Positions 1,300-49,425 of a DNA stretch of 64,000 nucleotides are shown here, one piece after another. The stretch covers positions 1 through 64,000 of IMG/VR virus record IMGVR_UViG_2879469214_000003; one strand, given 5' to 3'. The DNA comes from a virus. Its lineage: Duplodnaviria; Heunggongvirae; Uroviricota; Caudoviricetes. Position 1 is the stretch's first letter; each line of letters starts with the position of its first letter. The position numbers and the translations under genes were made by a program. The notes beneath the pieces were generated by a model that had not been told where the DNA came from, ran no database searches, and saw only the letters and a list, made by a program, of their open reading frames with translations.

Positions 1300-1406
1300 T
1301 CCCTCTAATTACTATTCCGTTGATATTCATTACCACGAATATGCCATGGCATGCCTTAAGCCGAACCGGTTGGCCCGGCCGGCTGGTGTAAAAACTATAT
1401 TATCGC

Positions 1407-1808
1407 TTACTTTCGCTCAAAGTTCAAATCCTCTGTACGGATTGTCATCAGCTCCAGTTTTCCTGGACTGCCTTCCGAGTATTGTTCCAACAAACGAACC
1501 GCCTGATGCCTGATCGAACGCTCAATGGCATTACGAACGTATCTGGCGTTACTGAACGCATGCAGCGAATCATTTTTTTCCTGAAGCAAATGTTGCTTTA
1601 GCTTGAGTATGGTCTGAGGCATTAGAATATAATCACGCTCTTTGGCCATAATCTCAGAGATTTGAATCAACTGATCAATACTATAGTCTGGAAACTCCAC
1701 TTGAATGGGGAAGCGGGAAGGTAATCCAGGGTTCGTCTGGAGAAAAAAATCAATTTCTTCCGAATACCCGGCAAGAATCAGTATAAACTGATTTTTGTTA
1801 TCTTCCAT
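1407..1808 (-). pseudogene. 3' portion of a spoVK-like AAA+ ATPase gene split by prophage insertion (attR side)
   Basis: 133 aa aligns with the C-terminal half of the SpoVK-like protein at 7903..8925 (ILAGY...GLPSRFPIQ...FSNARYVRN...IRHQAVRL). The frame is open upstream only to a TAG at 1824-1826. The hflX-spoVK neighbourhood resembles the B. subtilis arrangement. Confidence 0.6.
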
Positions 1809-3483: not shown

Positions 3484-3510
3484 CTTTATATATTATTTTT
3501 GTCTATTTGA

Positions 3511-3690
3511 TTATAACATTTCTGACTTGAGATAACTATTATCATTTGAATACTTATTCAGCATTTCTTCCATCCAGTCCAAAATCACCCCCTCAACATC
3601 TACTACGTTTGTATTCTGTTGCTCATCATTTATAATTTTATTGACTATGGTGTACTCAGCCATTCTTCTTGCGGTTAAACTTTTATTCAT
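3511..3690 (-). CDS. small hypothetical protein (59 aa), translationally coupled to the upstream gene
   Basis: ATG overlaps the TAA of 3683..4255 (ATGAATAA). RBS AGGAGG 7 nt upstream. Below the 60-aa cut-off of the ORF track. Confidence 0.3.
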   Translation of the reverse strand: MNKSLTARRMAEYTIVNKIINDEQQNTNVVDVEGVILDWMEEMLNKYSNDNSYLKSEML

Positions 3691-4255
3691 TTAAAGCCTC
3701 CTGTATCTTCGTATCGTATGTATTAATTGCCTCCATAATAAATTCTTTCAAATGATAGTGCCATCTCGTTCTAGGTTTAAAACCTTTAATCTCAATTCCA
3801 ATCTCCTCACAAATAGCTAGTGAAATACTACTTTTATTTACTTTGCTTCTATATGTATGTTCCTTGATTTGGTTCTGAGCTATGTTTTGATACTTTAGAA
3901 ACGCTTCAATATGTATAAAGAAAACTCTATTTTCTGGTTCTCGGAAGTTCATTATAAATCCCGATATGACACCTTGATATGTATTTGCTTCAGATAGTTT
4001 ATCAATTTGATGTTGCTTGATCACACTTTCCTGAAAACTAATTGACTTATCCTTAGTGGATTTAAGCTCTAGTGTGAACAAATGACTCTCTGCAAACATC
4101 ATACAATCATAATCATTCTTAGTTACCCTCACTCTGTTACGAAGATCTGGTGGAATAAAAGTGTCTTTCAAACGTGTAAAGAAGATCTTTTCTGCTCCTT
4201 GTGTTGCCGACTTCTGAAAATCTTCCTCAAAAACTTTACCAAGATTTGTAGCCAA
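3683..4255 (-). CDS. RecU-like Holliday-junction resolvase / PD-(D/E)xK nuclease
   Basis: 190 aa. LFTLELKSTK and VFFIHIEAF resemble the RecU catalytic D..E.K core. Confidence 0.45.
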   Translation of the reverse strand: MATNLGKVFEEDFQKSATQGAEKIFFTRLKDTFIPPDLRNRVRVTKNDYDCMMFAESHLFTLELKSTKDKSISFQESVIKQHQIDKLSEANTYQGVISGFIMNFREPENRVFFIHIEAFLKYQNIAQNQIKEHTYRSKVNKSSISLAICEEIGIEIKGFKPRTRWHYHLKEFIMEAINTYDTKIQEALNE

Positions 4256-4259
4256 TCAA

Positions 4260-4466
4260 TCATTCCTCTCCTGCAATTAATCGTTTAGCTTCTACTGCTT
4301 TAAACAAACAATCATATGTATCATGCACACAGACTCCATAAACATCTAAAATTTCTTCGCCTACATTTATAGTTTCCTTGCATCCATAACAATTTGAGTA
4401 CTGAATGATGCTCTCTTGTGGATCTGGAAAGTGGATATAGTGATAGTTATTTTCGAATCTATCCAT
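4260..4466 (-). CDS. small zinc-ribbon protein
   Basis: 68 aa with CYGC and a second Cys cluster. Confidence 0.3.
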   Translation of the reverse strand: MDRFENNYHYIHFPDPQESIIQYSNCYGCKETINVGEEILDVYGVCVHDTYDCLFKAVEAKRLIAGEE

Positions 4467-4593
4467 TTAACTTCTCAACTTTTTCATTCAGCAATTGGCT
4501 AAGTACTGTACCAACAACTTCTTTGTATTCGTCTTCAGTCAACTTGCGTTCAATGATTTGTTCAATCTTTGACTTACTAAGCTTGTTTTCCAT

Positions 4594-7500
4594 TTATTCA
4601 TTCTCCTTATCCTTATACTTGTTGTAACCAGTGATCCAAACGTCCGTCTGATCTGTAGATCTGAAGCCACCATTACCATCTGGGACTTGTCTTGGCTTTT
4701 TCTTATGACTTGTTATTTCAATTAAATCTCCTTTTCCAATTTTCAAGGCTTTATCTTTAACGTTAAATGTCTTCTTGTCCATTTTAAACACACGTTCATC
4801 ACCACTGCGAAGATTGTATAGGGTGAGTTTGGGACTATATTTAATATCTAAATCAGTAACTACGCACCAACCCGATTCTATATCAGGAAATATAGCCTCA
4901 GAGTAACCCAGCATTTCCTTCTGGAACATCACTTCTTCATTTGGCATTACTATGGAGTAGTCATTTTCAGTACGAATCCTATTTTCTTCATCAACTAGAT
5001 CCGCAATCCTCTTAAGTTTAGTCTTCTCAACGTATGTTTTTTTATATTGAGACTTCCCACTTGAGAATCCTTTGTACAGCGTCACTAACAAACTATTGTT
5101 ACCAAATTCTCTAAAAAACCCAAGACGAATTAATATATCAGTTTGACGACTGTTGACCGAAGTTTTTTCGTTTAAATCAACCAACAATTCAACGAATGAA
5201 TTATATGTGTTTTTACTTAAAATCAACAACTCTTCTGCAATCTTTTCGTTTAGGTATTTAATAGATTTTAAACCTTTGTAAATTGTTTTATCGCCCTCAT
5301 TAAAGGAGTAATCAGCATTAGACTTACCAAATTTTATTGGTGATACCTCAATGCCTCTTGTTTTAGCATAGTTAATTATTTGACCTGTTTTTTCTATGTT
5401 GTCATTATTTATATTTAACATCACAGTAAGAAAGGCTAGAGGGTAGTAGTGTCTTAGATATCCATTTCCATAGCCGATGTGAGAGTAAGGATTTGAGTGG
5501 TTATCGGAGAATCCATAACGCTGTGCATCATCTATGACCTGTAAGAAAGGCTCTAAGACAGCAAGCGCATCCTCTTCCGTCTCTCCGTAATCCAAATACA
5601 TTTTTTGCACAAAACGCTTTCTTATCTCTGGTAGAAACTTCTCTGTTCCTTCTTTTTTACTCAATCCTCTTCGAACACTATCGCTTTCTGCCATTGAGAA
5701 CTCACAGAACTCAACGAGAAAATTCATGATTTGTTCCTGATAAACTAGGTATCCAATAGTGCTCTTCAGAAAATTATTCAATGCTTCATGACCATGATCT
5801 TTGAATATGCCATTTGCCAAAGCTTGTCTGTATGAGTCTCCTGATGGTCTGATTGCTCCATTTCCAATTGAAAATAACTCAATATAACTAAACATATCGT
5901 TTTGTTCTTCTATCTTATGTATTGTTTCTTCACTTAGTAGATCTTTTAGATATGCTTGGGCTGAATTACTTTCCCATTGGAATATACCTAAACCTGACTC
6001 TCGTATCGAACTCCAGACATCTTTATCGTCAACGTCCATATTGTCTGGTGTAAGCCGTTCAATTCCAGCTAACTTACACGTCTCATTGATAATTTCATTG
6101 TTGTCCAAACCCAAAATATCCAACTTTACATAATTGAGTCCATCGAGTTCCTTCATATTGATCTGACTTACTGGATACTTGCTCTCTTTTGTATAACAAA
6201 GACCAATGTTATCTTCGAGACTTATCGGAGAAACAATGTAGCCAGAAGGATGAGAGCCTATACTTACTATAACTCCTTGCACCAACTCAACATATTTGAA
6301 TAGTTCGGGATACATTTCGAGATACTTTGGTTCTACTCTATCGACCTTCTTATCGTCTTTGTATACTGACTTAGCAATAGCATCTACTATCGCAAGATCC
6401 ATCCCCAAAGCCCTTCCAACTTCTCTAATTGCCCCTTTTAGTGCAACAGTGTTGAAGGTGATAATCTCTGAGAAGTGAATGCCGGGAATTGTTGCTACGT
6501 AATCAATAACATCTTGCCTTTTAGATGGAGGCCAATCCAAGTCAATATCAGCAAGCGAGATACGTTCTGGATTCAAGAATCGGAAAAAATTTAGCTTATG
6601 CTTGATACTATCCATCTCAGTAATTTTCAATAAATACGCAATTAAGCTTCCGTTAACTGATCCACGACCATATCCTTGATAAATATCATTGCTATGCGCC
6701 CAATCGACTACGTCTTTTTGGAGGAGCATATAATCAATAGCTCCAACCTTTTTATATGTATCAAACTCTTCTCTAATTCGTTTAAAGTATGTATCTTTTT
6801 TTACTTTGTCAAACTTATTAATTCCTCTTTCAACTACGCCGACATTTATCCTTTCTTTAAACACTTTTTCTGAGTCGTCGTGCAGCTTAGGATACTTGGG
6901 TGACGAATCAATTGTAAATTCTTCGATACTATCCGCCATAACGTTGGTATTGTGTATAGCTTCAAGGTAGACATTTCTAGGTAAGGCCGATTGCTCCTCA
7001 AACATTTTTACAACTTCGGGATATGTTTTAAATGTAAGATCAAATGCATCTTCGTCTCCATATGTCGCTCCCTTGGCCTTCATTAGAATCTTCCGTGCAT
7101 CAGCATGAGACCTGTTTAAGGCGTGAGTGTCTGTCCCTGCAATAAGCGGTATACCTGTTTCGATTGATAAATTATGTAGGTGTTGGTTGAATAACTTTTG
7201 CTCTGGGTGAGTGTGATATTGAATCTCAAAAAACATTCTATGCTTATTTTTCACAAAGAAGTCCATAAATCTGTTCATCATTTGCTTGTTGTCATTTTTA
7301 ATTGCTCTCCATAACGGAGATGCAAGACAGGCAGATGTCATGATAATATTATCCGAAGTATTGAACAGCTCTTCGAAAGTAATCCTTGGATTATAATAAT
7401 AATGTCCGTCATCTTTATTGTTCGAGAGTGAAGTTAGTTTGTTTAATTCTTGTGCACCTTCAAGATTCTTTGCAATAAGCATGTAATGATAATTGTCACG

Positions 7501-7737
7501 AATCAAACCACTTTCTTTGTCGTTGTGCTCCGTGAGATATATCTCGTTCGCATGAATATACTTCATACCCTTCTCTTCAATTGATTGTTTCTTCTTAACC
7601 CAATTAAATACATTTCCATGCTCAGAGAAACATATTGTCTGCATCTCTGCCTTCTCTGCTTTATCGATGTACTGCTGGTATTTAGTCACAGAGTCTATAG
7701 CCATTGATGTTGATGGATTGCTAGTGTCTGAATGCAA
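4594..7737 (-). CDS. DNA polymerase III alpha-type replicative polymerase (PHP plus polymerase core), YorL-like
   Basis: 1047 aa. N-terminal PHP motif (YHLHSDTSN when the frame is read a few codons upstream of the TTG at 7737). Large polymerase core. Exact start uncertain because there is no ATG. Confidence 0.8.
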   Translation of the reverse strand: MHSDTSNPSTSMAIDSVTKYQQYIDKAEKAEMQTICFSEHGNVFNWVKKKQSIEEKGMKYIHANEIYLTEHNDKESGLIRDNYHYMLIAKNLEGAQELNKLTSLSNNKDDGHYYYNPRITFEELFNTSDNIIMTSACLASPLWRAIKNDNKQMMNRFMDFFVKNKHRMFFEIQYHTHPEQKLFNQHLHNLSIETGIPLIAGTDTHALNRSHADARKILMKAKGATYGDEDAFDLTFKTYPEVVKMFEEQSALPRNVYLEAIHNTNVMADSIEEFTIDSSPKYPKLHDDSEKVFKERINVGVVERGINKFDKVKKDTYFKRIREEFDTYKKVGAIDYMLLQKDVVDWAHSNDIYQGYGRGSVNGSLIAYLLKITEMDSIKHKLNFFRFLNPERISLADIDLDWPPSKRQDVIDYVATIPGIHFSEIITFNTVALKGAIREVGRALGMDLAIVDAIAKSVYKDDKKVDRVEPKYLEMYPELFKYVELVQGVIVSIGSHPSGYIVSPISLEDNIGLCYTKESKYPVSQINMKELDGLNYVKLDILGLDNNEIINETCKLAGIERLTPDNMDVDDKDVWSSIRESGLGIFQWESNSAQAYLKDLLSEETIHKIEEQNDMFSYIELFSIGNGAIRPSGDSYRQALANGIFKDHGHEALNNFLKSTIGYLVYQEQIMNFLVEFCEFSMAESDSVRRGLSKKEGTEKFLPEIRKRFVQKMYLDYGETEEDALAVLEPFLQVIDDAQRYGFSDNHSNPYSHIGYGNGYLRHYYPLAFLTVMLNINNDNIEKTGQIINYAKTRGIEVSPIKFGKSNADYSFNEGDKTIYKGLKSIKYLNEKIAEELLILSKNTYNSFVELLVDLNEKTSVNSRQTDILIRLGFFREFGNNSLLVTLYKGFSSGKSQYKKTYVEKTKLKRIADLVDEENRIRTENDYSIVMPNEEVMFQKEMLGYSEAIFPDIESGWCVVTDLDIKYSPKLTLYNLRSGDERVFKMDKKTFNVKDKALKIGKGDLIEITSHKKKPRQVPDGNGGFRSTDQTDVWITGYNKYKDKENE

Positions 7738-7902
7738 ATGATAAATTACATAGTTATCCGTATGCTCATCTCCTTACTTAAATACTCGATCAAATATTGA
7801 TTTTATATATTATATTAGTCTAATTAGTTCACATTTTAATCACCTCCTTTGCTTTCTCCTATGGGACATTTAACACCATTGCATCCCATAGGAGATTACT
7901 CT

Positions 7903-8925
7903 CTATACCGTATAGATGCCTTCAACTTTCTTTGGCTCATTCAACTGGGAATCTATGTCCCGTGCGGTAATTTCCATCAGACTTTGGCGCGATATATTCT
8001 CACGTCTTTTCATTAGTCGTACAGCTTGATGCCTAATTGCTTTCTCGATCACATTGCGCACATATCTTGCATTGCTAAAGTGAATCCTTAAATTCTTTTC
8101 TTCTTGAATGATCTGTTTAAGTTTTACTCCAGCTTCACTTGTAAAGTTATAATCCTTCTCTGACGACATCTTTAGTGCAATTAGCATTAATTCCTCTGTA
8201 GAATAGTCATCAAAGTTGATCTGAATAGGAAATCTTGAAGGTAACCCTGTGTTAATCTGAAGGAAATCGTCCATCTCTATAGGATAGCCAGCCAGTATGA
8301 TGATTAGATCGTCGCTCTTGTCTTCCATTACTTTTACAAGTGTGTCGATAGCCTCTTTACCAAAGTCTTTTTCTCCTCCACGAGCAAGACTGTAAGCCTC
8401 ATCTATAAACAGTATCCCGCCCATGGCTTTTTTCACAAGCTCACGAGTCTTCAAAGCTGTATGACCAATGTACTCTCCAACTAAGTCAGCACGTTCGACC
8501 TCAATTAAGTGCCCTTTGCTTAATACACCCATCTTGTTGAGCATTTTGGATATTATCCTTGCTACAGTTGTTTTACCAGTGCCGGGGTTACCTTTAAAAA
8601 TCATGTGGTACACTTGCTTGCTGTTCTTCAATCCCACTTCGCTTCGATACTTATTGACCTGAATTAATGAGTAAATTTCATAAATAAGATCCTTAACTTT
8701 ATCAAGCCCGATCATTTCGCCCATCTCATTAAATATGTCTGCTGCGGATTCATTATTGTGATTACTTGTTAATGACTTTTCTTCACTTATCTCTAGAGGT
8801 GCTTTAAGTCCATCATCGGCGTTAAATACAATATTAATCCTTGCATCATTAACAGTAATTCGTCTGACGCTCTCGTCCACAGTCATCACCTCGTTAAGAC
8901 AGTATATGCATCTGTGTTGGGGCAA
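7903..8925 (-). CDS. SpoVK-like AAA+ ATPase (phage-borne intact paralog)
   Basis: 340 aa. Walker A GNPGTGKTTVARI, Walker B ILFIDEAYSL, GLPSRFPIQ, C-terminal FSNARYVRN. Confidence 0.75.
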   Translation of the reverse strand: MPQHRCIYCLNEVMTVDESVRRITVNDARINIVFNADDGLKAPLEISEEKSLTSNHNNESAADIFNEMGEMIGLDKVKDLIYEIYSLIQVNKYRSEVGLKNSKQVYHMIFKGNPGTGKTTVARIISKMLNKMGVLSKGHLIEVERADLVGEYIGHTALKTRELVKKAMGGILFIDEAYSLARGGEKDFGKEAIDTLVKVMEDKSDDLIIILAGYPIEMDDFLQINTGLPSRFPIQINFDDYSTEELMLIALKMSSEKDYNFTSEAGVKLKQIIQEEKNLRIHFSNARYVRNVIEKAIRHQAVRLMKRRENISRQSLMEITARDIDSQLNEPKKVEGIYTV

Positions 8926-14096: not shown

Positions 14097-14819
14097 ATGG
14101 AAGAAAAGGTCGGATTGAATTTTTACTCTAATCTAAAAGAAATATTAGATTTTTATGATGAGGAGCTATCAAGCAAAAAACTAATTCCAACAACTAAATT
14201 GGATGCTTTGTACGTATGGACTGCTTTGGCTTTAATTGTAAGTGGGACAACACTCCTTTTTATCAGTCTAGGCAACTTTAAATCTCTTCTTTCAGTTCTC
14301 CTTTCAACTTTGGCAATTGTACTGCTTTTATCCGCTTTGGGTTTGATGCAACTTATAGTCAATTCAAGGGGTAAAACCGTGAAATTATACTTTGGTGATG
14401 GTGAAAAACAGCAGTACTTAACGCTTGAAAATAAAAGATCAAGTAAAAACGAAAATAATATTCTCTTTGCATATCGAACTGATAGAATCGCAAGTAAATT
14501 GAATGAAATGGGAATATATAAAGTCGAACACATTACAGCTATCGCTGAGCACTTAGAGAGCCACAGTCAAAACACTAAAAGTATAAAATGGCTTCCTATC
14601 GGCATTTTTGGATTGTTCTTAATTCCTCTGTGGACAGAATTTGTAGGCAAATACTTAAGCGGCACTTCTTCTGTTATTTTCTTAATCCTATTAGGGTCGG
14701 TACTTGCTACTGTTGTATACTTGCTGAATATTGCTTTCAGGATTATCCTATGGCCTGAAACTGATAAGCAGATAGAGATTGCTACCATCATGAAAATTTT
14801 ATTAACTTCTAGAGTTTAA
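14097..14819 (+). CDS. 4-TM membrane protein (plus-strand insertion, candidate superinfection-exclusion or Abi-type protein)
   Basis: 240 aa. Two hydrophobic hairpins (residues about 40-85 and 165-215). RBS AAAGGAGTG. Opposite strand to its neighbours. Own terminator. Confidence 0.55.
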   Translation: MEEKVGLNFYSNLKEILDFYDEELSSKKLIPTTKLDALYVWTALALIVSGTTLLFISLGNFKSLLSVLLSTLAIVLLLSALGLMQLIVNSRGKTVKLYFGDGEKQQYLTLENKRSSKNENNILFAYRTDRIASKLNEMGIYKVEHITAIAEHLESHSQNTKSIKWLPIGIFGLFLIPLWTEFVGKYLSGTSSVIFLILLGSVLATVVYLLNIAFRIILWPETDKQIEIATIMKILLTSRV

Positions 14820-20718: not shown

Positions 20719-21160
20719 TTAAGTTCCTTTCATCATCGATTAAGACTTGAAATTCTCTAAGTGTTTCCGCTGTAGGGTAACTCTCAAATCTAAATTTTTT
20801 AACTATTTTATTTTTGTCTTTTAATACGTCCCCTATAACATCAAGTGCTCCGCAGTAAACATCATAAATGGAGTTTCCGCTACCAAACAAAATAATTCTT
20901 CTTCCCTCTAACAATAAGAGCTTATTATAGATCATTTTAAAATATTCATGCGGAACTCCTTTGCCAACGGTCGATGTGCCAATAAATAATGCCTTATAAT
21001 TTTTAAAATCTAATCTACTAGGACTAATAGTTGCTAAATTATATAAATCAAATCCATCAGTATTACAAAGTTCAACTAATGCTTTTGTGTTTCCAGACAT
21101 CGAGTAATAAAAAATAGCTTTGGTTCTAGAGATCGAAACCATCCCCGCTCTCATGACCAT
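20711..21160 (-). CDS. nrdI: NrdI flavodoxin-like protein
   Basis: YYSMSGNTKALVE. Located upstream of nrdF and nrdE. Confidence 0.6.
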   Translation of the reverse strand: MVMRAGMVSISRTKAIFYYSMSGNTKALVELCNTDGFDLYNLATISPSRLDFKNYKALFIGTSTVGKGVPHEYFKMIYNKLLLLEGRRIILFGSGNSIYDVYCGALDVIGDVLKDKNKIVKKFRFESYPTAETLREFQVLIDDERNLID

Positions 21161-22151
21161 ATGAAATTACATTTGTCTGAAAGAAGTCGCCTTTTGTGTT
21201 GCCTCCTTTAGTTCCATAAGTTATAATCCACTGTGATTTCAGTTCTTTATTGTCTGGATATACTTCCTCAAGTCCCGCATTTCTACAAATAACATTCGAT
21301 AGGTACTCAATATAGTCTTTATATTCTGATACTGAAAGAATATCAATTCCATCGAAAATATAATCTGCCCACTCTTTTTCCTTTTCAACACAAAAACGAA
21401 TGAAATTAATTGCATTATTATAATTTTCTTTTGTATTTAGCTGTTCATTTTCAAGCATGAGTATCTTCATTACATCTCCATAAAATACAGAATGAAAGTT
21501 TTCATCAGTTTTAATTAAGTTAACCATATTGTTGGAACCTATCATTCTATTGGATCTTGCTAAAGAGTTAAAGTATACAAATGCACCAGTAAAGAAAACT
21601 CCTTCCAATACCAGATTCGCAAGTAAAGCATGATATAGTTTATTGAAGTCTGTAGGATTATCAATAAAGTCTTGTATCTTGTCAAAAATCATATTGTTAC
21701 GCTCCCTTAAGATATGGATTTCTTTAGGAGCATTAAATGCCTGTTTCTTTTCCTCAGAATTAAGCATTGTAGAAGTAAGGTATTGATATGATCTAGCATG
21801 AAGCCCTTCAAACGCCCCAATGATCTGAATAACTGCTGCAACACTAGGATCTGTGCATGTATGACCAATTGTGAAATTAAATCTGTTTGCAACCGAATCT
21901 AGAGATGTTAGCATACCAGTTAATACGTTATACACATATTTCTCTCTCTCAGTTAGAGAATCTCTGTATTGCTTTAGATCATTTGTGAGTCTAATCTCGT
22001 CTTCAATCCAATAGTTTCCAAACAGTTCTTTATATAGTGTCAACATGTGAGGATATTTAATATCATCCCAATCACATATTCCACTTGCTACTCCACCAAA
22101 AATCTTTGTGGCTTTATTCTTAACTTCACCATTGAATACTCTAAATGACAA
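21126..22151 (-). CDS. nrdF: ribonucleotide reductase class Ib beta subunit
   Basis: 341 aa ferritin-like protein with di-iron carboxylate motifs. Confidence 0.85.
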   Translation of the reverse strand: MSFRVFNGEVKNKATKIFGGVASGICDWDDIKYPHMLTLYKELFGNYWIEDEIRLTNDLKQYRDSLTEREKYVYNVLTGMLTSLDSVANRFNFTIGHTCTDPSVAAVIQIIGAFEGLHARSYQYLTSTMLNSEEKKQAFNAPKEIHILRERNNMIFDKIQDFIDNPTDFNKLYHALLANLVLEGVFFTGAFVYFNSLARSNRMIGSNNMVNLIKTDENFHSVFYGDVMKILMLENEQLNTKENYNNAINFIRFCVEKEKEWADYIFDGIDILSVSEYKDYIEYLSNVICRNAGLEEVYPDNKELKSQWIITYGTKGGNTKGDFFQTNVISYGHESGDGFDL

Positions 22152-22207
22152 AATATCGCTCCATTCAACTTTATTAGTTGAGGGAGAAATTCTCCCTCAC
22201 TTTTTAT

Positions 22208-24535
22208 TTATCCACTACAGGATTCACAATTTTCTTTTCGATTTACAGAATTCTTATCAACGTAATTGTAGTAAAGAGATTTTAAAGAGTTCTTCCATGC
22301 AAATGTATGTATTTTTAACATCTCACTAGCTTTTACTGATTCATGAACCATAACGTTGTGTGAAATAGATTGATCAATTCCTTTTTGAGCAGCGGCAATA
22401 ATCTTCAATGACCACAATTCATCCATCTCAAAACCTGATTTGTAGTACCACTTTGTCTTCGCGCTGTAGTTAGCAGGAATAACAGTCACGTTCATACCTT
22501 GTTTTTCTTCTTGGAAAATAACTTCATATGGTGCATCTAAAGACGCGAATACATTATTGATCAAACTATTTGATCCAGTAGGCGCAATACAGCTAAGGTT
22601 CCCGTTCCGTATGCCCTGAGACATGATACGTTTCTTGAGATCAACCCATTCAGAAGAGCTATAATTTCGTTTCTCGAAGTATTCTCCCGTATCCCAATCA
22701 GAACCTTTGAACTTTGGATAACTTCCTTTTTCAATTGCTAATTTATGACTAGCAAGAATATGAGCATAGTTAAGTTTCTCGAACACTTCTGTTACATATT
22801 CAGAAGCTTTATCAGATTCCCAACGTATACCTTTATCCGCTAATAAATTGGCTAACCCCATGGCTCCAGCACCTACACTACGATATAAGTTATTCGTATG
22901 AGTAGCTTGTTCGACTACTGTCCTATTCAGAGTAATAACGTTATCTAATAGTCTAAATTGAATATCGATAACAGATTGGAGATCGATGTCATCATTTCCG
23001 AAAACAGCAGGAAGAGAAATGGAACTTAAATTGCATGTAACAAGACCTGAACCAACTTTCTTTTCTACAACAGTTCCATCCGGTAAAAGTTCTTTGGATA
23101 GGAACTCATCCACATCGCAGTTCAAAACGATCTCCGAACAAAGATTGGAAGAAATCGGTATTCCTTCATGTCCATTTGGATTCATTCTGGCAGCAGTATC
23201 AATGTAGTATATATAAGGAGTACCACCTGTTTTTTGCGCCTCAAAAATTGATTTGTAAATATCAGTTGCTTTTACAACCTTTTTAATTTCAAGATTATCA
23301 TTCTTTTCAATCAATCTATAATAATATGTAAATGCATGGTCTTTCTTGTTTGGAATCTCGTTTTCCTGAAGTAGTTTTTTATCATATAACTTATTTACAT
23401 CGATCCCCATTTTCTTATTAACTTCATAGGGATCGAATATAGTCCATGTGTCACGACTATTCAATCTTCGCATGAATTCATCTGGGACGTTCACAGCAGT
23501 AAAAATAGAATGAGCTCTTCTTTCTTGAGACCCTGTTTTCATTCTTAGGTCAAGAAAATCAAAGATATCAGCATGCCATAAAGGAAGGTAGAGAGCGATT
23601 CCTCCCGGTCTCATATTTAACTGATTGACATATGTTGCAATTTCATTGAACAGTTTTGATGGCCCAACAACACCAGTCGATCTTCCCTTGTATCCTCGAA
23701 TCCAACTACCATGAGATCTAAGTTTTCCTAGATAAATACCTAATCCTGCTCCGTTCTGACTGAATGTTGATGCATCTTTTACTGCATTCATAATACTGTT
23801 TAAGCTATCATCGACAGTAATGATATGACATGAACTTAGTGTTCCAGAAGCTCTTCCGCTATTAGATAGTGTTGGTGTAGCCAAACCAATAAGATGATTA
23901 CTAAGTGCATCGTAAGAATCTTTGACATATGTCATTCTTTTAGTTTTGTCTTCATCTTTCAGAAGATAAAGTACTGTTGTTAAATAACGTTCTTGGAAAA
24001 GCTCTAAAGTTTCTTCGTTATATCCTTTTGCTAGATAATTTTTATTAAACAGAAATAATCCAGCATAGCTAAACTTACGATCTCTCTCTTTATTGATATA
24101 TAAACCAGCTTCATCTAATTCTTTTTTACTATATTCTTTCAAAATGTCTTCTGAATATATTCCTTTTTCAGTTAACATCTTGACAAGAGTATAATAATCT
24201 CCGTAACCATTTTTATAGTCAAAGCCCCGTTCTTTTGAAGCCTCTTTGTATTTTTTTCGTCTAAATGCTGACGCAGAAAGATATGTGAAATTCGGAGTAA
24301 ACTGATTAATCATGTTGTTTGATTCTCTTACAATTAAGTCAAATAAATAATCAGCTTTTACTTCCTTTTTGCTAGTGACTTCGGAAATAATCTTGTTCAG
24401 TAAATTCTCTAAATCACTTTTTTCAAATTCTTTTCCACTATCCTGTACAATCTCTTCAAAGAACCTGATGAATCTTTCCTCAATAAATTCTGTTTTCTGA
24501 ATATAAGACCCACGATCTTTTAGTACTACTGTCAA
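22208..24535 (-). CDS. nrdE: ribonucleotide reductase class Ib alpha subunit
   Basis: 775 aa. LSSCHIITVDDSLNSI, catalytic Cys and Asn region, C-terminal YY-CESCSG tail. Confidence 0.85.
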   Translation of the reverse strand: MTVVLKDRGSYIQKTEFIEERFIRFFEEIVQDSGKEFEKSDLENLLNKIISEVTSKKEVKADYLFDLIVRESNNMINQFTPNFTYLSASAFRRKKYKEASKERGFDYKNGYGDYYTLVKMLTEKGIYSEDILKEYSKKELDEAGLYINKERDRKFSYAGLFLFNKNYLAKGYNEETLELFQERYLTTVLYLLKDEDKTKRMTYVKDSYDALSNHLIGLATPTLSNSGRASGTLSSCHIITVDDSLNSIMNAVKDASTFSQNGAGLGIYLGKLRSHGSWIRGYKGRSTGVVGPSKLFNEIATYVNQLNMRPGGIALYLPLWHADIFDFLDLRMKTGSQERRAHSIFTAVNVPDEFMRRLNSRDTWTIFDPYEVNKKMGIDVNKLYDKKLLQENEIPNKKDHAFTYYYRLIEKNDNLEIKKVVKATDIYKSIFEAQKTGGTPYIYYIDTAARMNPNGHEGIPISSNLCSEIVLNCDVDEFLSKELLPDGTVVEKKVGSGLVTCNLSSISLPAVFGNDDIDLQSVIDIQFRLLDNVITLNRTVVEQATHTNNLYRSVGAGAMGLANLLADKGIRWESDKASEYVTEVFEKLNYAHILASHKLAIEKGSYPKFKGSDWDTGEYFEKRNYSSSEWVDLKKRIMSQGIRNGNLSCIAPTGSNSLINNVFASLDAPYEVIFQEEKQGMNVTVIPANYSAKTKWYYKSGFEMDELWSLKIIAAAQKGIDQSISHNVMVHESVKASEMLKIHTFAWKNSLKSLYYNYVDKNSVNRKENCESCSG

Positions 24536-25376: not shown

Positions 25377-25757
25377 TTAATCTCTTGGTTTAAGATTAAA
25401 CATAATACTACCAAACAATGTATCGTTTGCACTACCAGTAAAATTATCCAATACATGATCATTATCTTTGTCTGTATGTTCAATGATAAGCACATTGTAC
25501 TTCTGATCATAGTGCATTCCGCCAAGTTTAAATTGTACAGGAATACTCAGAGAAGACGCTGCCGAAGTTATTGCTTGAACCAACTCGGATTCATGCTTCT
25601 CCCTAATTGTTTTGTACGTGCCATTTGGCAGTGTAATAGTGTATGAGGTATCGTCAATGGTAAACGTAAATGTGTTATTGCTTGATGTAATTGTCACTTG
25701 ATGATTGATATCTACTGATCCCCAAACTTGTTGTCCGTATGCTGCTATTCTATCCAT
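25377..25757 (-). CDS. hypothetical beta-rich protein
   Basis: 126 aa ORF. Divergent from the SEC-C gene. Confidence 0.35.
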   Translation of the reverse strand: MDRIAAYGQQVWGSVDINHQVTITSSNNTFTFTIDDTSYTITLPNGTYKTIREKHESELVQAITSAASSLSIPVQFKLGGMHYDQKYNVLIIEHTDKDNDHVLDNFTGSANDTLFGSIMFNLKPRD

Positions 25758-25901
25758 CTCCCTTGTTGTTTGTTTAATGTTCTACTTCTTTATAAAAGGT
25801 ACATTTTATTTAGAAAATGATGTTATACTCTAAATGCCAACAGAAGTTACGTTACATGATAATGTAACCACTGAATATTAAGTCATGAATGGAGACCCTG
25901 G

Positions 25902-26975
25902 ATGAAAATTGGAAGAAATGACCTTTGCACTTGCGGTAGTGGTAAGAAATACAAAGTATGTCATATGCAGCTTCCAGATAAGCCGTTAATTGATCCTTCT
26001 ATTCCTGTAAACTCAGCAATAGATAGAAGGATGAGAGAAAATTTAATAAAACAATGCGTCCACCCAAATCAGGAAGAATGCAGAGGAGAACCAATCAAGG
26101 CTCACTCAATACAAAACAATCGTATTCTAAGAAAACTTGGAAGAAACGGCGACCTATATATGGTTAAGATGGTTGTGAATGAAACATCTAAAAGAATGAA
26201 TCCTCGTTTTAAGGCCATTGGACGAAAGAAGGCAACGACCTTTAGTGGTTTTTGTAGTCATCATGACAAGGAATTGTTCCAACCAATTGAGGATCAAGAC
26301 TTTTATGGCTCCGAACATCAAAAGTTTTTATTCTCCTATAGGGCTTTTTCATTTGAGTACCATAAAAAAGCAGAAGCAGCTAAATTACATAAGAAAAATG
26401 GAGATGATAAACCAAGTCTTTATACCAACTATGAGTATCTAGGTTTTAAGGAGGGGTATGATTTATCAACTAATGACAATGAATACACTAAAAGTCTTTA
26501 TGATGAAGCACTTTTATCGAATGATTATGTAGCAGTTGAATCTGTAGAAGTTGTCCTGAACAAAGAAGTGCTTTTTTCGGTTAGTTCAGGATTCTATCTC
26601 GAATATGATCTGACAGGGGAAAAAATAAATGATTTGTCTAACCCAGAAGCTCGAATCCACCCTGTGACCCTAACTGTTTTCCCAGAAAATAAACGAACTA
26701 TAATACTATTTAGTTGGCTTAGAGACAGTTCAGAAATATACTTTAACTTCAAACAACAATTGCTTGGTCTTAAGGTAGATCAACTAGAACAAATACTAAA
26801 TAATATGATCCCGTCTTATTGTGAGAATGTGGTTTATAACCCAGACTTTATAGACAATATGAATTCTTCGAATAAATCTGACTATTTAAAAGTGTACTCA
26901 TCAACAACTATGGATTATATACCGAGCAACATAAAGAAGAATCTACTTACTGCTACAAGTTATACTTTATTTTAG
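25902..26975 (+). CDS. SEC-C zinc-binding motif protein with uncharacterised C-terminal domain (plus-strand insertion, candidate defence or Abi gene)
   Basis: 357 aa. N-terminal CTCGSGKKYKVCH (SEC-C metal-binding motif). Second His/Cys cluster GFCSHHD. RBS GGAGA. Own extended -10 promoter (TGtTATACT) and terminator. Confidence 0.6.
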   Translation: MKIGRNDLCTCGSGKKYKVCHMQLPDKPLIDPSIPVNSAIDRRMRENLIKQCVHPNQEECRGEPIKAHSIQNNRILRKLGRNGDLYMVKMVVNETSKRMNPRFKAIGRKKATTFSGFCSHHDKELFQPIEDQDFYGSEHQKFLFSYRAFSFEYHKKAEAAKLHKKNGDDKPSLYTNYEYLGFKEGYDLSTNDNEYTKSLYDEALLSNDYVAVESVEVVLNKEVLFSVSSGFYLEYDLTGEKINDLSNPEARIHPVTLTVFPENKRTIILFSWLRDSSEIYFNFKQQLLGLKVDQLEQILNNMIPSYCENVVYNPDFIDNMNSSNKSDYLKVYSSTTMDYIPSNIKKNLLTATSYTLF

Positions 26976-26985
26976 GTGTTTAACT

Positions 26986-27009
26986 GGGGCGCTTTGCGCT
27001 CCCTTTTTT
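26986..27009 (+). terminator. rho-independent terminator after the SEC-C gene
   Basis: GGGGCGC-ttt-GCGCTCCC followed by TTTTTT. Confidence 0.5.
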
Positions 27010-27058
27010 ATGAAATTTGACTTTCATTAACATTTCTACTTCTTACAACCCTTTTATA

Positions 27059-27439
27059 TCAACGTTTTTCTGACTTCTCTTTTTGACAATAATTACAGAT
27101 CATATCATCTTCTTCTGTTGAATGCATTTCTTCTCCTGAATATCTGTCTTCACAAACTTGGCAGTCGTATTTAATATAATGTAGTGGATTATATCCAGAC
27201 CAAGTTTCCCCTAAATGTTCTGCAACTTGCCCAACTGCATTGGAATCAATATCAACCTTTTTAATTTCTCCCTCTTCGATGGTTCCATATACTTCACTAT
27301 GCTTTCCAAGGATCTCACCAAAGTACGCTTCTTTCCCAATCGCATACTCAACTTCGCTTTCAGTAGCAACAAACAATCCTTCGACTTCGCCTTGACGACT
27401 ACAATCCCAATTAAACTTGTATAGATACTTTTCTTCCAT
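27059..27439 (-). CDS. hypothetical protein with C-terminal Cys cluster
   Basis: 126 aa. CQVCEDR...CNYC. Confidence 0.35.
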   Translation of the reverse strand: MEEKYLYKFNWDCSRQGEVEGLFVATESEVEYAIGKEAYFGEILGKHSEVYGTIEEGEIKKVDIDSNAVGQVAEHLGETWSGYNPLHYIKYDCQVCEDRYSGEEMHSTEEDDMICNYCQKEKSEKR

Positions 27440-27461
27440 TTACTTCACCTCTGCTATGTAT

Positions 27462-27857
27462 TTAAATAGTTTCAATATTGATTCCTAAACTCTTAACCTT
27501 TTCTATTGTCCCAAGACTTACTTCCTCCGTAACCAAATCCCATCCATACAATGTGACACCGTAATAAGCATCTGAAACATCTGCCTCTTCATCGTGAATC
27601 TCTCCACGTAATCTGATCGTCTTCTCTTTAAATGACTCTTGTCCAATCACGTTGTACTCACTATCATAAACATCAAAGATTTCTTCATCTTCTTCATGAT
27701 ATACATAGCCAGTACAGATACTATTGTCGTCAATACTCTTATCTAACTTCATCCATTCGTATACTGCTTCATCTGACGTTGCAATCAAATATGTAACAAT
27801 TCCCGCTTTACTGCCTTTAGGTGCAAAGTGTTCGAATTTAATCTTGTATAGGTTCAC
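27462..27857 (-). CDS. hypothetical protein
   Basis: 131 aa ORF. Confidence 0.35.
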   Translation of the reverse strand: MNLYKIKFEHFAPKGSKAGIVTYLIATSDEAVYEWMKLDKSIDDNSICTGYVYHEEDEEIFDVYDSEYNVIGQESFKEKTIRLRGEIHDEEADVSDAYYGVTLYGWDLVTEEVSLGTIEKVKSLGINIETI

Positions 27858-27893
27858 TTGCTTCTCTCCTTTCTAAATCAAATACGCCATTTA

Positions 27894-28253
27894 TTAGAAT
27901 TTAGGATTAAGAGATTCATTCACAGTTGAAAAGATAACCTGAATTTGATTGGCCCAAGGCTTTAGGGTGGGATCTAATCTTCTAATCTCTCCGAGTTCTG
28001 TTTCAGAAACTTGATTGTAAAAATCGTTCTCTCCATATTTGATCCACTCAAATCCTTCACGAAGAACATTGATTCCGTTGATCAATTCCACGATAATTCC
28101 CTCTTTAAACGAATCATCATCTGAGTAATATGCATCAGTAATTTCTCTTAGGCGTTCTGGTGTCAATCCCATTGACTCCTCTCCTTTTAATACTCGTGTT
28201 AAATATTCATCTTTGTTTTCTTCTATGTATTTCATTGTCTCTTTAATGCCCAC
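27894..28253 (-). CDS. hypothetical protein
   Basis: 119 aa ORF. Confidence 0.35.
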   Translation of the reverse strand: MGIKETMKYIEENKDEYLTRVLKGEESMGLTPERLREITDAYYSDDDSFKEGIIVELINGINVLREGFEWIKYGENDFYNQVSETELGEIRRLDPTLKPWANQIQVIFSTVNESLNPKF

Positions 28254-28284
28254 TCATTTGCCCCCTAAACTATTCGAAGACTGT

Positions 28285-28731
28285 TTACCGACATATGTCC
28301 AGATAATTCTTGATAAAGTCAATCAGCACATCTACATCTTGCTCTGTTGTTTGTTCGTTAATTATAAATTTATCAACGTCAATAAATTTACTATAGTCTC
28401 CACCGCCGTGATATTCATCAGCAACATGAATTTTAAGTTGCAAATTGCCTGTTATCTTAAGCAAATGAATATCGCTTCCTTCTGAAATTGGAAAATCAAT
28501 TTCACGCTTATCAATTTTATTTTCTTCAATATATTCATTTATGGAATACAAAACATCATCGCATTGATCCTCATTAAAGTACGAATTATATCCGGGCACT
28601 TTACCTCTAAAATATGTGCTAAGTTTATTGTTTAACTTAGTTCGAGCTCGCTCAACTACCCCATCCATTGAAGCAACTAGGCCTACTTTTTCAGCTTCTC
28701 TCAAATAGTACCAGTCAGCATATTTTGTCAT
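28285..28731 (-). CDS. hypothetical protein
   Basis: 148 aa ORF. Confidence 0.35.
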   Translation of the reverse strand: MTKYADWYYLREAEKVGLVASMDGVVERARTKLNNKLSTYFRGKVPGYNSYFNEDQCDDVLYSINEYIEENKIDKREIDFPISEGSDIHLLKITGNLQLKIHVADEYHGGGDYSKFIDVDKFIINEQTTEQDVDVLIDFIKNYLDICR

Positions 28732-28817: not shown

Positions 28818-29438
28818 TTGGTGCGTATGGCTTTAACTATTGATTGGGGTACTTTAGTAGTTTCAATTCCGGTTGTTATAACTACTGCTTTAGCTGCAAC
28901 TAAGTATCTTGTGAAAGCTTATTCGAATGAACATTTTGAGAAGCGAATGGAGTCTTTCAAAGCCGAATTGCAACAGGAGGCAGAAAAGAGAAAATTAGAA
29001 ATGGAAAAAGAACATACTGAGTATTTAAAAAAGCTGGATAGTAAAATGATAGTCTCTGCCGATTACATACAGGAACGATATGTCAAGATAAAAGAAATAC
29101 GAGCGCTAATGCAAGATAAATTTCTCACTGTAAAAAATGCTTCTCCTTCTGATTCGGTTCTTTCAAGTTATATTGAAACTGAAATTAGAAAATATTTAGA
29201 TAATAATAGAATGTATTTTACAGATGAATATATAGATTTTATTGATAGCTTTATTCTGCATATCAACGAAGCTAGAATGAAAATGTATGAAGCATATGTT
29301 ATACGAGACTCCACTAAATTCACCAATGCTCAAAAATATGAAAGGCATGAACAAGCTAGTGAATCTTTTGAAAAATTAGAAGCTCTCTATCATCAAATCG
29401 AAAAACATCTCCGCAATGATTATTTAGGAGCCCTTTGA
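28818..29438 (+). CDS. membrane-anchored coiled-coil protein (plus-strand insertion)
   Basis: 206 aa. N-terminal TM (LTIDWGTLVVSIPVVITTALAA) then coiled coil. Followed by a strong terminator. Confidence 0.5.
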   Translation: MVRMALTIDWGTLVVSIPVVITTALAATKYLVKAYSNEHFEKRMESFKAELQQEAEKRKLEMEKEHTEYLKKLDSKMIVSADYIQERYVKIKEIRALMQDKFLTVKNASPSDSVLSSYIETEIRKYLDNNRMYFTDEYIDFIDSFILHINEARMKMYEAYVIRDSTKFTNAQKYERHEQASESFEKLEALYHQIEKHLRNDYLGAL

Positions 29439-48348: not shown

Positions 48349-48846
48349 ATGAAGGACAAGTTAAAGGGTTTGGTCATTGGTATTCTAATTGGATCAACAA
48401 TTACAGGAGCTACAGCTTTTGCAGCTACTACTACACCAATTAAAGCAGTTATCCAGAAAGTCAGTCTTTATGTAGATGGAACTAAGAAGTCAATAACTGA
48501 TGCAATAACGTACAAGAACACTACATATGTACCAGTTAGAAGTATGAGTAATGCAATTGGTGAGAAGGTTTCATTAAAAGGGGATAATCTCTATATTGGT
48601 AAGCAGCCAAAGGCGAAAGTGAGTTTGGACGATGCTTTTGATTTAGTGTACAAAAAAATTAAGAAAGATGTGGATAAATACAGTTTAAGTATGATGGAAG
48701 ATGGAGAAAGCGAGGGTAAATATGTAATTCGTGTATTTGAAGACTTTCCTGATCATATAGCCACATACGGATGGTATTACGTTGATATGAATACCGGAGC
48801 AGTTTATTGGTATGATCTTGCTAATGATAACATGGTAAAACTATAG
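48349..48846 (+). CDS. secreted protein with signal peptide (plus-strand insertion)
   Basis: 165 aa. N-terminal signal peptide (LVIGILIGSTITGATAFAA), then a beta-rich domain. Confidence 0.5.
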   Translation: MKDKLKGLVIGILIGSTITGATAFAATTTPIKAVIQKVSLYVDGTKKSITDAITYKNTTYVPVRSMSNAIGEKVSLKGDNLYIGKQPKAKVSLDDAFDLVYKKIKKDVDKYSLSMMEDGESEGKYVIRVFEDFPDHIATYGWYYVDMNTGAVYWYDLANDNMVKL

Positions 48847-48930: not shown

Positions 48931-49425
48931 TTGGTTTTTCAATGCTTCATTATGGAAGGGGTGTTTTCAATGAATCAGCACAATAAAATTATTGACTCTG
49001 ATGAAATTAAAGTTCTTTTTGATGGGAAGTCCTTTATCAAAACTGTTACTTTTGAAGATGACAACATATCAATATTGTATTATGAAACTTATGAGGATAT
49101 GCTGCAAAACTCAGAAAAACTATTGATTACTGAAGAAGAATTCAATATTTTCTTTACTCCTACGACAATTGAAAAAATAATGATTAAAAACACTTCCGAC
49201 ATACTTTTTAAATTTCCATTTGTAAAGAATATTTCAATTACTCTTAAAACTAACAATTATGTTTACTCTGCAAAACTAAATAAGACATTGATATATGAAT
49301 TTACTGGAGTAGATATTGGAAAATTCAATGACTCCAACGAATACAAAACTAATTTTGCTTCAATTCACTTAGATAAAAAAGAAATCAGAAATAAGTTATT
49401 TCAACAAATAGTTAATATTGATTAA
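48931..49425 (+). CDS. hypothetical cytoplasmic protein (second gene of the plus-strand cassette)
   Basis: 164 aa ORF. Same strand as 48349..48846. Confidence 0.4.
   Translation: MVFQCFIMEGVFSMNQHNKIIDSDEIKVLFDGKSFIKTVTFEDDNISILYYETYEDMLQNSEKLLITEEEFNIFFTPTTIEKIMIKNTSDILFKFPFVKNISITLKTNNYVYSAKLNKTLIYEFTGVDIGKFNDSNEYKTNFASIHLDKKEIRNKLFQQIVNID

What the first reader, a model, noticed from the sequence alone, without database searches (positions are those of the whole stretch)
25758..27010. Plus-strand N-terminal SEC-C-motif protein with own promoter, operator-like palindrome and terminator; candidate defence or Abi gene
The 357-aa protein begins with a SecA-type SEC-C zinc motif (CTCGSGKKYKVCH), unusually at the N-terminus. 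It continues with an uncharacterised domain containing a second His/Cys cluster (GFCSHHD) and a possible degenerate HNH-like segment (IKAHSIQNN...NGDL). It is a single opposite-strand gene with an extended -10 promoter and a 7-bp inverted repeat GTTACAT-N4-ATGTAAC at 25851-25868 in its leader. It sits between replication modules, the classic position for phage-defence cargo.
Basis: partly seen in the sequence, partly recalled or inferred. Interest (0 to 1): 0.6.

Follow-up and report, generated by a model that had tools for sequence, protein, structure and literature searches.

The report
Prophage-borne Rugutis-family anti-phage gene

Summary
The ORF (25902-26975, +, 357 aa), its N-terminal SEC-C zinc knuckle (Pfam E 6e-10), the GFCSHHD cluster, the extended -10 promoter and the terminator are all real. 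Promoter block, Shine-Dalgarno site and terminator are conserved in a related prophage. The 7-bp palindrome is exact but not conserved there, and 14% of shuffles give one.

The protein is a full-length homologue (31% identity, E 1e-56) of Rugutis (pUCCL633_059). Rugutis is an experimentally validated single-gene, abortive-infection-like system whose reported trigger is the phage large terminase. The family is large (1416 clusters at E<=1e-30). In every locus examined it lies beside defence genes or in a prophage accessory slot.

The family core keeps C52, C60, H68, C118, H121, D122 and R147 in at least 97% of 247 sequences, and the C-terminal half varies. The SEC-C motif is missing in about a quarter of members. 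A confident AlphaFold model (pLDDT 91) matches nothing in the PDB. I found no support for an HNH domain. The database name 'YecA family' rests on the 20-residue motif only.

Verdict: a prophage accessory gene encoding a Rugutis-family defence protein. It is a new member of a known kind, and its effector chemistry is unresolved.

The parts
25783..25832 (+). Promoter block with an extended -10 (TG-T-TATACT, 25821-25829) and no recognisable -35.
   Evidence: Sequence read. The block is 84% identical to the related Paenibacillus sp. O199 prophage (L004), equal to the coding sequence (83%), whereas the adjacent leader is 57%. The consensus scanner did not call it, so function is inferred from conservation.
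25851..25868 (.). Perfect 7-bp inverted repeat GTTACAT-GATA-ATGTAAC in the 5' leader. Probably fortuitous.
   Evidence: Exact. 14% of shuffled leaders contain such a repeat. It is 56% identical and asymmetric in L004.
25888..25896 (+). Ribosome-binding site AATGGAGAC (GGAG lies 7 nt before the ATG).
   Evidence: The 11-nt stretch 25885-25895, which covers this site except its last base, is 100% identical in L004.
25902..26975 (+). Coding sequence of a 357-aa Rugutis-family protein. It is identical to the P. xylanexedens protein that databases name 'YecA family protein'.
25914..25967 (+). SecA-type SEC-C metal-binding knuckle (aa 5-22; ligands C9, C11, C20, H21).
   Evidence: Pfam PF02810, E 6.1e-10. 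Matches SecA, YchJ and YecA-type metal-binding-domain structures only over this stretch. Present in 181 of 246 family members.
26052..26381 (+). Conserved family core (aa 51-160) holding C52, C60, H68, Q71, C118, H121, D122, E130, Y146 and R147. Inferred to be the metal centre and active site.
   Evidence: 247-sequence alignment: C52, C60, H68, C118, H121, D122 and R147 are each conserved in at least 97%, Q71 in 96%, E130 in 92%. Mean pairwise identity is 46%, against 27% for the rest of the protein. No Pfam, NCBIfam, PADLOC or PHROG family covers it.
26382..26972 (+). Variable C-terminal half (aa 161-357): a helical hairpin, a second beta-sheet and a helical bundle, ending in a conserved aromatic-x-L-F tail. 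Inferred to be the trigger-recognition part.
   Evidence: Secondary structure of the AlphaFold model. Higher column entropy and 27% mean pairwise identity. A terminal aromatic-x-[LIFV]-F occurs in 189 of 247 sequences.
26986..27010 (+). Intrinsic terminator (GGGGCGC-TTT-GCGCTCC plus a T-run), 10 nt after the stop codon, between convergent genes.
   Evidence: it is the only terminator-like site in 25600-27200. Stem and T-run are conserved in L004, with the single change in the loop.

Best explanation
The locus is a self-contained accessory gene ('moron') in a large temperate Bacillota prophage integrated in Paenibacillus xylanexedens. It encodes a single-protein, abortive-infection-type anti-phage defence of the Rugutis family.

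Shown here:
- The gene has its own conserved extended -10 promoter, ribosome-binding site and terminator. It is transcribed against the prophage's replication genes.
- Its product is a full-length homologue of Rugutis and shares every family-invariant residue with it.
- Five related phages keep the flanking genes but carry different cargo in this slot.

Taken from the literature on Rugutis, not tested here:
- The protein lets phage DNA enter. It is then activated late in infection by the invader's large terminase subunit (ATPase domain). It kills or arrests the cell before progeny are released.

Inferred:
- The conserved N-terminal core (aa 51-160) is the effector. C52, C60, C118 and H121 probably hold a structural zinc. 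H68, D122, E130 and R147 (with Q71 and Y146) probably form a metal-dependent hydrolytic or phosphate-binding site of a new fold.
- The variable C-terminal half (aa 161-357) is the surface that recognises the terminase.
- The SEC-C knuckle is an optional targeting module. By analogy with SecA and YecA it may dock the protein on ribosomes. Bacillota lack SecB (my own knowledge), so SecB docking is unlikely.
For: Homology to Rugutis:
- tblastn against plasmids finds the 359-aa SEC-C protein of Lactococcus pUCCL633A. This matches 'Rugutis, pUCCL633_059, 359 aa, N-terminal SEC-C' in PMC11381338.
- BLASTP gives 31% identity over 338 aa, E 1e-56. All invariant residues are shared.

Rugutis phenotype and trigger:
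-.

No PDB match for the fold, as reported for Rugutis:

Gene neighbourhoods:
- McrBC-like genes plus Dcm and MutH (L001).
- Type III restriction-modification plus nSTAND3 (L005).
- HsdM and T5orf172 (L007).
- Tn7-like cargo with AbiJ, a Gabija-like OLD plus UvrD pair, and SIR2 (L008).
- PifC and a P-loop NTPase (L011).
- An Abi gene plus an AAA ATPase and a helicase (L012).
- The gpD-ogr slot of P2-like prophages, in 92 of 5426 E. coli genomes.
- No partner gene recurs across these loci.

Prophage setting and variable slot:
-.

Regulatory elements:
-.

Conservation pattern of the protein:
-.

SEC-C binding to SecB and ribosomes:
- bioRxiv 10.1101/2020.07.21.215244 and 10.1101/613315.
Against: - No experiment exists for this protein or for any Paenibacillus or Bacillus member.
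- Identity to Rugutis is only 31%, so the trigger specificity (terminase) may not transfer.
- In the PNAS study the escape-mutant terminase was still toxic when co-expressed with Rugutis, so direct sensing is not firmly established.
- The metal site and active site are inferred from conservation alone. I could not read model coordinates.
- The isolated core folds poorly (pLDDT 70).
- No enzymatic family matches the core.
- The related phages' slot also carries non-defence cargo, such as a reprolysin-like peptidase and DUF6884 plus Vut_1. Position alone therefore does not prove defence.
- The ribosome-docking role of SEC-C is an analogy only. A quarter of the family lacks the motif.
Confidence: 0.75

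Rival explanations
1. It is a housekeeping SecA/YecA-type accessory chaperone of the Sec pathway, as the database name 'YecA family protein' implies.
For: NCBI and UniRef name it 'YecA family protein'. The SEC-C motif is genuine.
Against: - NCBIfam YecA/UPF0149-type models match only about 20 residues, at 17-29 bits against cut-offs of 140-267.
- Nothing beyond aa 22 matches SecA, YecA or YchJ.
- The gene lies in a 35% GC prophage.
- It is accessory: 1.7% of E. coli genomes carry it, inside P2-like prophages.
- A homologue has a demonstrated anti-phage phenotype.
Confidence: 0.02
2. The core is a divergent HNH / His-Me finger nuclease, so the protein kills by cutting DNA.
For: - H68 ends a beta-strand and is invariant.
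- Q71, N72, N73, G83, H121 and D122 are conserved.
- A Cys/His cluster flanks them, as in zinc-containing HNH domains.
- From memory, the pattern AH-x-x-Q...NG...H-D-x3-F loosely resembles the Pfam HNH_2 motif. This is a lead, not a test.
Against: - None of 26 diverse members hits any HNH Pfam family at E<=1.
- In the model H68 is followed by a helix, not by the beta-hairpin of a beta-beta-alpha-metal fold.
- About 35 residues separate the NG turn from the H-D pair.
Confidence: 0.1
3. It defends the lysogen without killing it, by binding the incoming phage's terminase directly and blocking DNA packaging (non-abortive superinfection exclusion). On this reading the Cys/His core is purely structural.
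For: - Rugutis escape mutations fall in the terminase ATPase domain.
- No known enzymatic fold is detected.
- The mutant terminase remained toxic with Rugutis, so the toxicity assay does not cleanly separate sensing from targeting.
Against: - Rugutis cultures collapse or stop growing at high MOI, which is the Abi-like pattern.
- Terminase expression reduces viability only when Rugutis is present, which implies an active toxic output.
- The near-invariant polar residues H68, D122, E130 and R147 look like a catalytic constellation rather than a scaffold.
Confidence: 0.1
4. It is prophage cargo with a non-defence role, for example an addiction toxin or a host-physiology modifier. The homology to Rugutis would then not predict its function in this host.
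For: The same slot in related phages carries non-defence-looking cargo (a secreted metallopeptidase, DUF6884 plus Vut_1). Identity to Rugutis is only 31%.
Against: - No antitoxin-like partner recurs in any locus.
- Defence genes are adjacent in every non-prophage context examined.
- All family-invariant residues are retained.
Confidence: 0.05

Closest known systems
Rugutis (Lactococcus plasmid pUCCL633A, pUCCL633_059 / WP_137016746.1; Grafakou et al., NAR 2024, PMC11381338; PNAS 2025, PMC12184496)
   Same: - Single gene of about 360 aa with an N-terminal SEC-C motif.
- Collinear homology over 338 aa (31% identity, E 1e-56).
- Identical invariant residues: C52, C60, H68, C118, H121, D122, E130, R147.
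- A confidently predicted fold with no PDB match.
- Carried on a mobile element.
   Different: - The host is Paenibacillus and the carrier is a large temperate prophage rather than a dairy plasmid.
- 69% of aligned residues differ, mostly in the C-terminal half, which I propose recognises the trigger. Target phages and the exact trigger may therefore differ.
- No phenotype has been measured for this member.
SecA / YecA (AscA) / YchJ metal-binding domain (SEC-C, PF02810)
   Same: The C-x-C-x8-C-H knuckle, including the conserved Ser and Tyr, at aa 9-21. In SecA and YecA this domain binds SecB and ribosomes.
   Different: Only about 20 residues are shared. The motif is N-terminal here, and the rest of the protein is unrelated. 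The motif is dispensable in about 26% of the Rugutis family.
Other defences reported to involve the phage large terminase: lactococcal Rhea (PMC12184496) and Avs/AVAST types 1-3 (from my own knowledge)
   Same: The large terminase is the phage component tied to the defence. Rhea and Rugutis escape mutants map to the terminase ATPase domain. The output is abortive.
   Different: There is no sequence or domain similarity. Avs proteins are large STAND NTPases with recognisable effector domains. Rhea resembles TnsE. This protein has no NTPase module.
NonA of Bacillus subtilis prophage SPbeta
   Same: An abortive-infection gene carried by a large temperate Bacillota prophage that also encodes its own ribonucleotide reductase. 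It protects the lysogen from unrelated phages (PMC8270828).
   Different: NonA is a small transmembrane protein unrelated in sequence. The present protein is soluble and 357 aa, with Cys/His clusters.
HNH / His-Me finger nucleases
   Same: An invariant His at the end of a beta-strand, nearby Asn/Gln residues and a surrounding Cys/His cluster.
   Different: There is no profile match and no structural match. The local topology is not beta-beta-alpha.

Membership tests
Rugutis anti-phage family | Significant, collinear, near full-length sequence homology to the validated protein pUCCL633_059. | tested here: met
   BLASTP gives 31% identity over 338 aa, E 1e-56. tblastn covers 93% of the query, E 4e-42. 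The subject is the 359-aa SEC-C protein of plasmid pUCCL633A, matching the paper's table.
Rugutis anti-phage family | Architecture: a single protein of about 360 aa with an N-terminal SEC-C motif followed by a domain that has no database family. | tested here: met
   Pfam finds SEC-C at aa 5-22 only. No Pfam, NCBIfam, PADLOC or PHROG family covers aa 23-357.
Rugutis anti-phage family | Family-invariant core residues (C52, C60, H68, C118, H121, D122, E130, R147 in window numbering). | tested here: met
   All are present in the window protein and in Rugutis. Each is conserved in 92-100% of 247 members.
Rugutis anti-phage family | A confidently predicted fold without significant PDB neighbours. 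| tested here: met
Rugutis anti-phage family | Stand-alone (single-gene) system in a mobile-element or defence context. | tested here: met
   The gene has its own promoter and terminator. No neighbour recurs across L001, L004, L005, L007, L008, L010-L012 and L015.
Rugutis anti-phage family | Protection against phage after DNA injection, with an Abi-like MOI dependence. | not testable with these tools
   Known only for the lactococcal protein.
Rugutis anti-phage family | Activation by the phage large terminase subunit. | not testable with these tools
   Known only for Rugutis with phage c2.
YecA / UPF0149 family (the database name of this protein) | A UPF0149-type N-terminal domain with a C-terminal SEC-C motif, scoring above the NCBIfam cut-off. 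| tested here: not met
   The best NCBIfam hits cover only aa 1-22, at 17-29 bits against cut-offs of 140-267.
SEC-C / SecA metal-binding-domain motif (PF02810) | The C-x-C-x8-C-[CH] knuckle scoring above the Pfam gathering threshold. | tested here: met
   39.2 bits against 20.4. It aligns to SecA metal-binding-domain peptides 1ozb and 1sx0, E 3e-9 to 1e-8 with the family profile.
HNH / His-Me finger nucleases | A profile match to an HNH family, or a beta-beta-alpha-metal fold with the catalytic His at the end of beta-1. | tested here: not met

The most novel reading that the evidence does not exclude
The conserved Cys/His/Asp/Glu/Arg core is a previously unseen metal-dependent effector fold. 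The SEC-C knuckle docks the protein at the ribosome, as it does for SecA and YecA. The defence would then inspect or act on the phage large terminase, or on translation itself, at the site of synthesis. That would make it a ribosome-tethered abortive-infection sensor and effector.
Probability: 0.12. Interest if true: 0.7.

Novelty: new member of a known kind. Interest (0 to 1): 0.35.

Why it matters
This places the Rugutis family, so far studied only on dairy lactococcal plasmids, inside a large temperate Paenibacillus prophage. The gene has a defined promoter, terminator and insertion slot there.

The analysis also shows several family-level points:
- The family is widespread, and databases misname it 'YecA family'.
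- In E. coli it occupies the gpD-ogr slot of P2-like prophages.
- Its SEC-C motif is optional.
- A fixed set of residues (C52, C60, H68, C118, H121, D122, E130, R147) marks the likely active centre.

These residues give direct mutagenesis targets for a defence system whose effector mechanism and fold are still unknown. The finding itself is not a new kind of system.

Tried and rejected
- HNH / His-Me nuclease idea: no Pfam HNH hit in 26 members, and no structural neighbour.
- YecA or Sec chaperone: rejected, because only the 20-residue motif matches.
- Operator-like palindrome: rejected as a conserved element.
- Two-gene system with the 206-aa plus-strand membrane/coiled-coil ORF (28818-29438). 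In L004 that ORF directly follows the gene, but the terminator lies between them. The pair is separated by four genes in the window. The 206-aa proteins are only 32% identical while the SEC-C proteins are 82% identical. No such neighbour occurs elsewhere.
- PADLOC hits to E2, E1-E2 and PDC-S12: these are motif-only matches to SEC-C tails.
- Megablast of the locus against phage genomes: no match. tblastn found only two unverified Listeria phage contigs.
- The afdb50 fold library was unavailable.
- Model coordinates could not be read, so the geometry of the proposed zinc site was not checked.

Full report
**1. What is in the sequence**

The window holds one long plus-strand ORF at 25902-26975 (357 aa, ATG). 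GGAG lies 7 nt upstream of the start codon. It is flanked on both sides by minus-strand genes.

The protein begins MKIGRNDLCTCGSGKKYKVCH. Pfam finds a SEC-C motif at aa 5-22 (E 6.1e-10, 39.2 bits against a cut-off of 20.4) and nothing else credible. NCBIfam, PADLOC and PHROGs match only these same 20 residues. The NCBIfam 'YecA-like' models score 17-29 bits against cut-offs of 140-267. The database name 'YecA family protein' therefore rests on the motif alone.

**2. Regulatory elements**

- TGTTATACT (25821-25829) is an extended -10 without a usable -35. The simple scanner does not call it, and promoter-like sites in the region are no more frequent than in shuffles.
- In a related prophage of Paenibacillus sp. 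O199 (L004, protein 82% identical), the 50-nt block 25783-25832 is 84% identical. That is as conserved as the coding sequence (83%). The downstream leader is 57% identical and the Shine-Dalgarno stretch 100%.
- The terminator (26986-27002 plus a T-run) is the only terminator-like site in 25600-27200. It is conserved in L004, with its single change in the loop.
- The inverted repeat GTTACAT-N4-ATGTAAC is exactly at 25851-25868. However, 14% of shuffled leaders contain an equivalent repeat, and in L004 the site has lost its symmetry.

I accept the promoter and terminator and reject the 'operator'.

**3. The surrounding element**

- From about 2 kb onward the window has 33-37% GC, against 43% in the first 2 kb.
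- The first ORF (1-1299) is a host HflX-type GTPase. It is followed by a large serine recombinase (1798-3483).
- The rest encodes a RecU-like protein, a PolIII-alpha-like polymerase, a clamp-loader-like ATPase, NrdE and NrdF (21126-24535), a Band7 protein, a RecJ-like exonuclease, a DnaB-like helicase and many PHROG families of unknown function. Nearly all are on the minus strand.
- The polymerase is about 57% identical to those of 140-166 kb Bacillus siphophages.
- The identical protein lies on a 2.79-Mb contig of P. xylanexedens GCA_003833245.1.

The gene is therefore an opposite-strand cargo gene in the replication region of a large temperate phage.

Five related IMG/VR phages (134-204 kb) keep the flanking genes: the 126-aa gene, the 148-aa gene, Band7 and NrdE. 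They lack the SEC-C gene. In its place they carry other cargo: a reprolysin-like secreted peptidase on the opposite strand, a DUF6884 plus Vut_1 cluster, or unknown genes. The slot is therefore variable, but not exclusively defensive.

**4. Identity of the protein**

A search of 5.8 billion proteins returns 219 full-length relatives of about 360 aa from Bacillus, Paenibacillus, Streptococcus suis, Clostridia and Negativicutes. A profile search of 1.84 billion cluster representatives gives 1416 clusters at E<=1e-30.

A literature search for SEC-C in anti-phage defence led to 'Rugutis' (PMC11381338). Rugutis is a 359-aa single-gene system from plasmid locus pUCCL633_059, with an N-terminal SEC-C motif and an otherwise unmatched predicted fold.

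tblastn of the window protein against plasmids hits the 359-aa SEC-C protein of Lactococcus plasmid pUCCL633A. Pairwise BLASTP gives 31% identity over 338 aa, E 1e-56. All family-invariant residues are shared.

Published findings on Rugutis:
- It acts after DNA injection, protects at low MOI, and gives culture collapse or stasis at high MOI.
- Expressing the c2 terminase lowers viability only in Rugutis cells. The mutant terminase remained toxic.
- A 2026 review still lists the mechanism as unknown.

**5. Genomic context of relatives**

| Locus | Organism | Neighbours |
|---|---|---|
| L001 | Sutcliffiella | McrBC-like pair; Dcm and MutH |
| L005 | S. suis | type III restriction-modification; nSTAND3 ATPase |
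| L007 | Bacillus sp. | HsdM; T5orf172 |
| L008 | Sporomusa | Tn7-like cargo with AbiJ, a Gabija-like OLD plus UvrD pair, SIR2 |
| L011 | Klebsiella pKPN5 | PifC; a P-loop NTPase |
| L012 | Vibrio | an Abi gene; AAA ATPase plus helicase |
| L015 | E. coli | between gpD and ogr of P2-like prophages |

In E. coli the gene is present in 92 of 5426 complete genomes. From my own knowledge, the gpD-ogr position is where phage P2 carries its non-essential Z/fun exclusion gene. No neighbouring gene recurs across these loci, which fits a single-gene system.

**6. Anatomy of the protein**

In 247 family sequences, C52, C60, H68, C118, H121, D122 and R147 are each conserved in at least 97%. Q71 is conserved in 96%, D236 in 94% and E130 in 92%.

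Residues 51-160 average 46% pairwise identity, against 27% for residues 161-357. Most members end in an aromatic-x-L-F tail (189 of 247).

The SEC-C motif is present in 181 of 246 members. Others start directly at the core, or carry a different N-terminal extension of about 60 aa or an insertion in the beta-sheet.

AlphaFold2 with a 34-sequence alignment gives pLDDT 91 and pTM 0.90. The model runs: an N-terminal four-stranded sheet plus helix that carries the invariant residues, a long helical hairpin, a second four-stranded sheet, and a helical C-terminus.

- Foldseek gives no hit at E<=0.001.

**7. Mechanism**

- Shown: the protein belongs to the Rugutis family, and the gene is an autonomous transcription unit in a prophage accessory slot.
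- From the literature: an Abi-like outcome and a terminase trigger.
- Inferred: the conserved core is the effector. C52, C60, C118 and H121 would form a zinc site, and H68, D122, E130 and R147 a hydrolytic or phosphate-binding pocket.
- Inferred: the fast-evolving C-terminal half is the trigger-binding surface, as is usual for defence sensors.
- Inferred: SEC-C is an optional targeting module. In SecA and YecA this motif mediates binding to SecB and to ribosomes. Bacillota lack SecB (my own knowledge), so ribosome docking is the more plausible analogy.

**8. Rivals**

- The YecA chaperone reading is refuted by the domain comparison.
- The HNH reading has only a loose motif resemblance, with no profile or structural support.
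- A non-abortive packaging block, or a non-defence cargo role, cannot be excluded without experiments. Both fit the Rugutis data and the invariant polar residues less well.

**9. Verdict**

The defence/Abi interpretation is supported by homology to a validated system.

The finding is a new member of a known kind, and interest is moderate to low. It adds a new host and carrier, a corrected annotation, and a defined residue set for attacking an unsolved mechanism.

Noticed in passing
window 1-3483: The left prophage boundary lies here. A host HflX-type GTPase gene (1-1299, minus strand; 43% GC in the first 2 kb) is followed by a 561-aa large serine recombinase (1798-3483, minus strand), and about 35% GC phage DNA continues to the end of the window.
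   Followed up: partly
window 28818-29438 (+): A second opposite-strand ORF of 206 aa, with an N-terminal transmembrane helix and a coiled coil, and no family match. In the related prophage L004 its 32%-identical counterpart directly follows the SEC-C gene (L004:11188-11808). In the window four minus-strand genes (27059-28731) separate them. It may be another accessory or exclusion gene.
   Followed up: partly
L016-L020 (IMG/VR phages of 134-204 kb), locus coordinates about 150-5000: The slot next to the conserved 126-aa gene is variable in related phages. No SEC-C gene is present. L017 has a reprolysin-like secreted metallopeptidase on the opposite strand (3872-4801). L020 has a DUF6884 protein plus a Vut_1 transporter-like protein. 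The others have unknown ORFs.
   Followed up: partly
L015 (E. coli O26 RM10386) 6001-7140; also L010: A Rugutis-family gene annotated 'YecA family protein' sits between gpD and ogr of P2-like prophages. It is found in 92 of 5426 complete E. coli genomes. 80 copies are at least 99% identical to the query and 12 are 80-90% identical. All are chromosomal.
   Followed up: partly
P0194, P0202, P0175, P0192 (family members): Architectural variants of the family. Some replace the SEC-C motif with an unrelated N-terminal extension of about 60 aa. Others keep a variant SEC-C and carry an insertion of about 55 aa inside the first beta-sheet.
   Followed up: no
(motif-only matches): SEC-C knuckles also end several PADLOC defence-associated proteins (E2, E1-E2 and PDC-S12 models), and one begins an NCBIfam methionyl aminopeptidase model. 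The motif seems to be a recurrent add-on module in defence proteins and ribosome-associated enzymes.
   Followed up: no
window 14097-14819, 48349-48846, 48931-49425, 56528-57220 (all +): Further plus-strand ORFs in an otherwise minus-strand prophage. None has a confident family; 48349-48846 weakly resembles a copper amine oxidase N-terminal domain. They are possible additional accessory genes.
   Followed up: no
L011 (Klebsiella pKPN5) 2262-8152: A SEC-C-less family member lies about 1.5 kb downstream of pifC and a P-loop NTPase, a PifA-like phage-exclusion locus. A 260-aa hypothetical gene sits between them.
   Followed up: no
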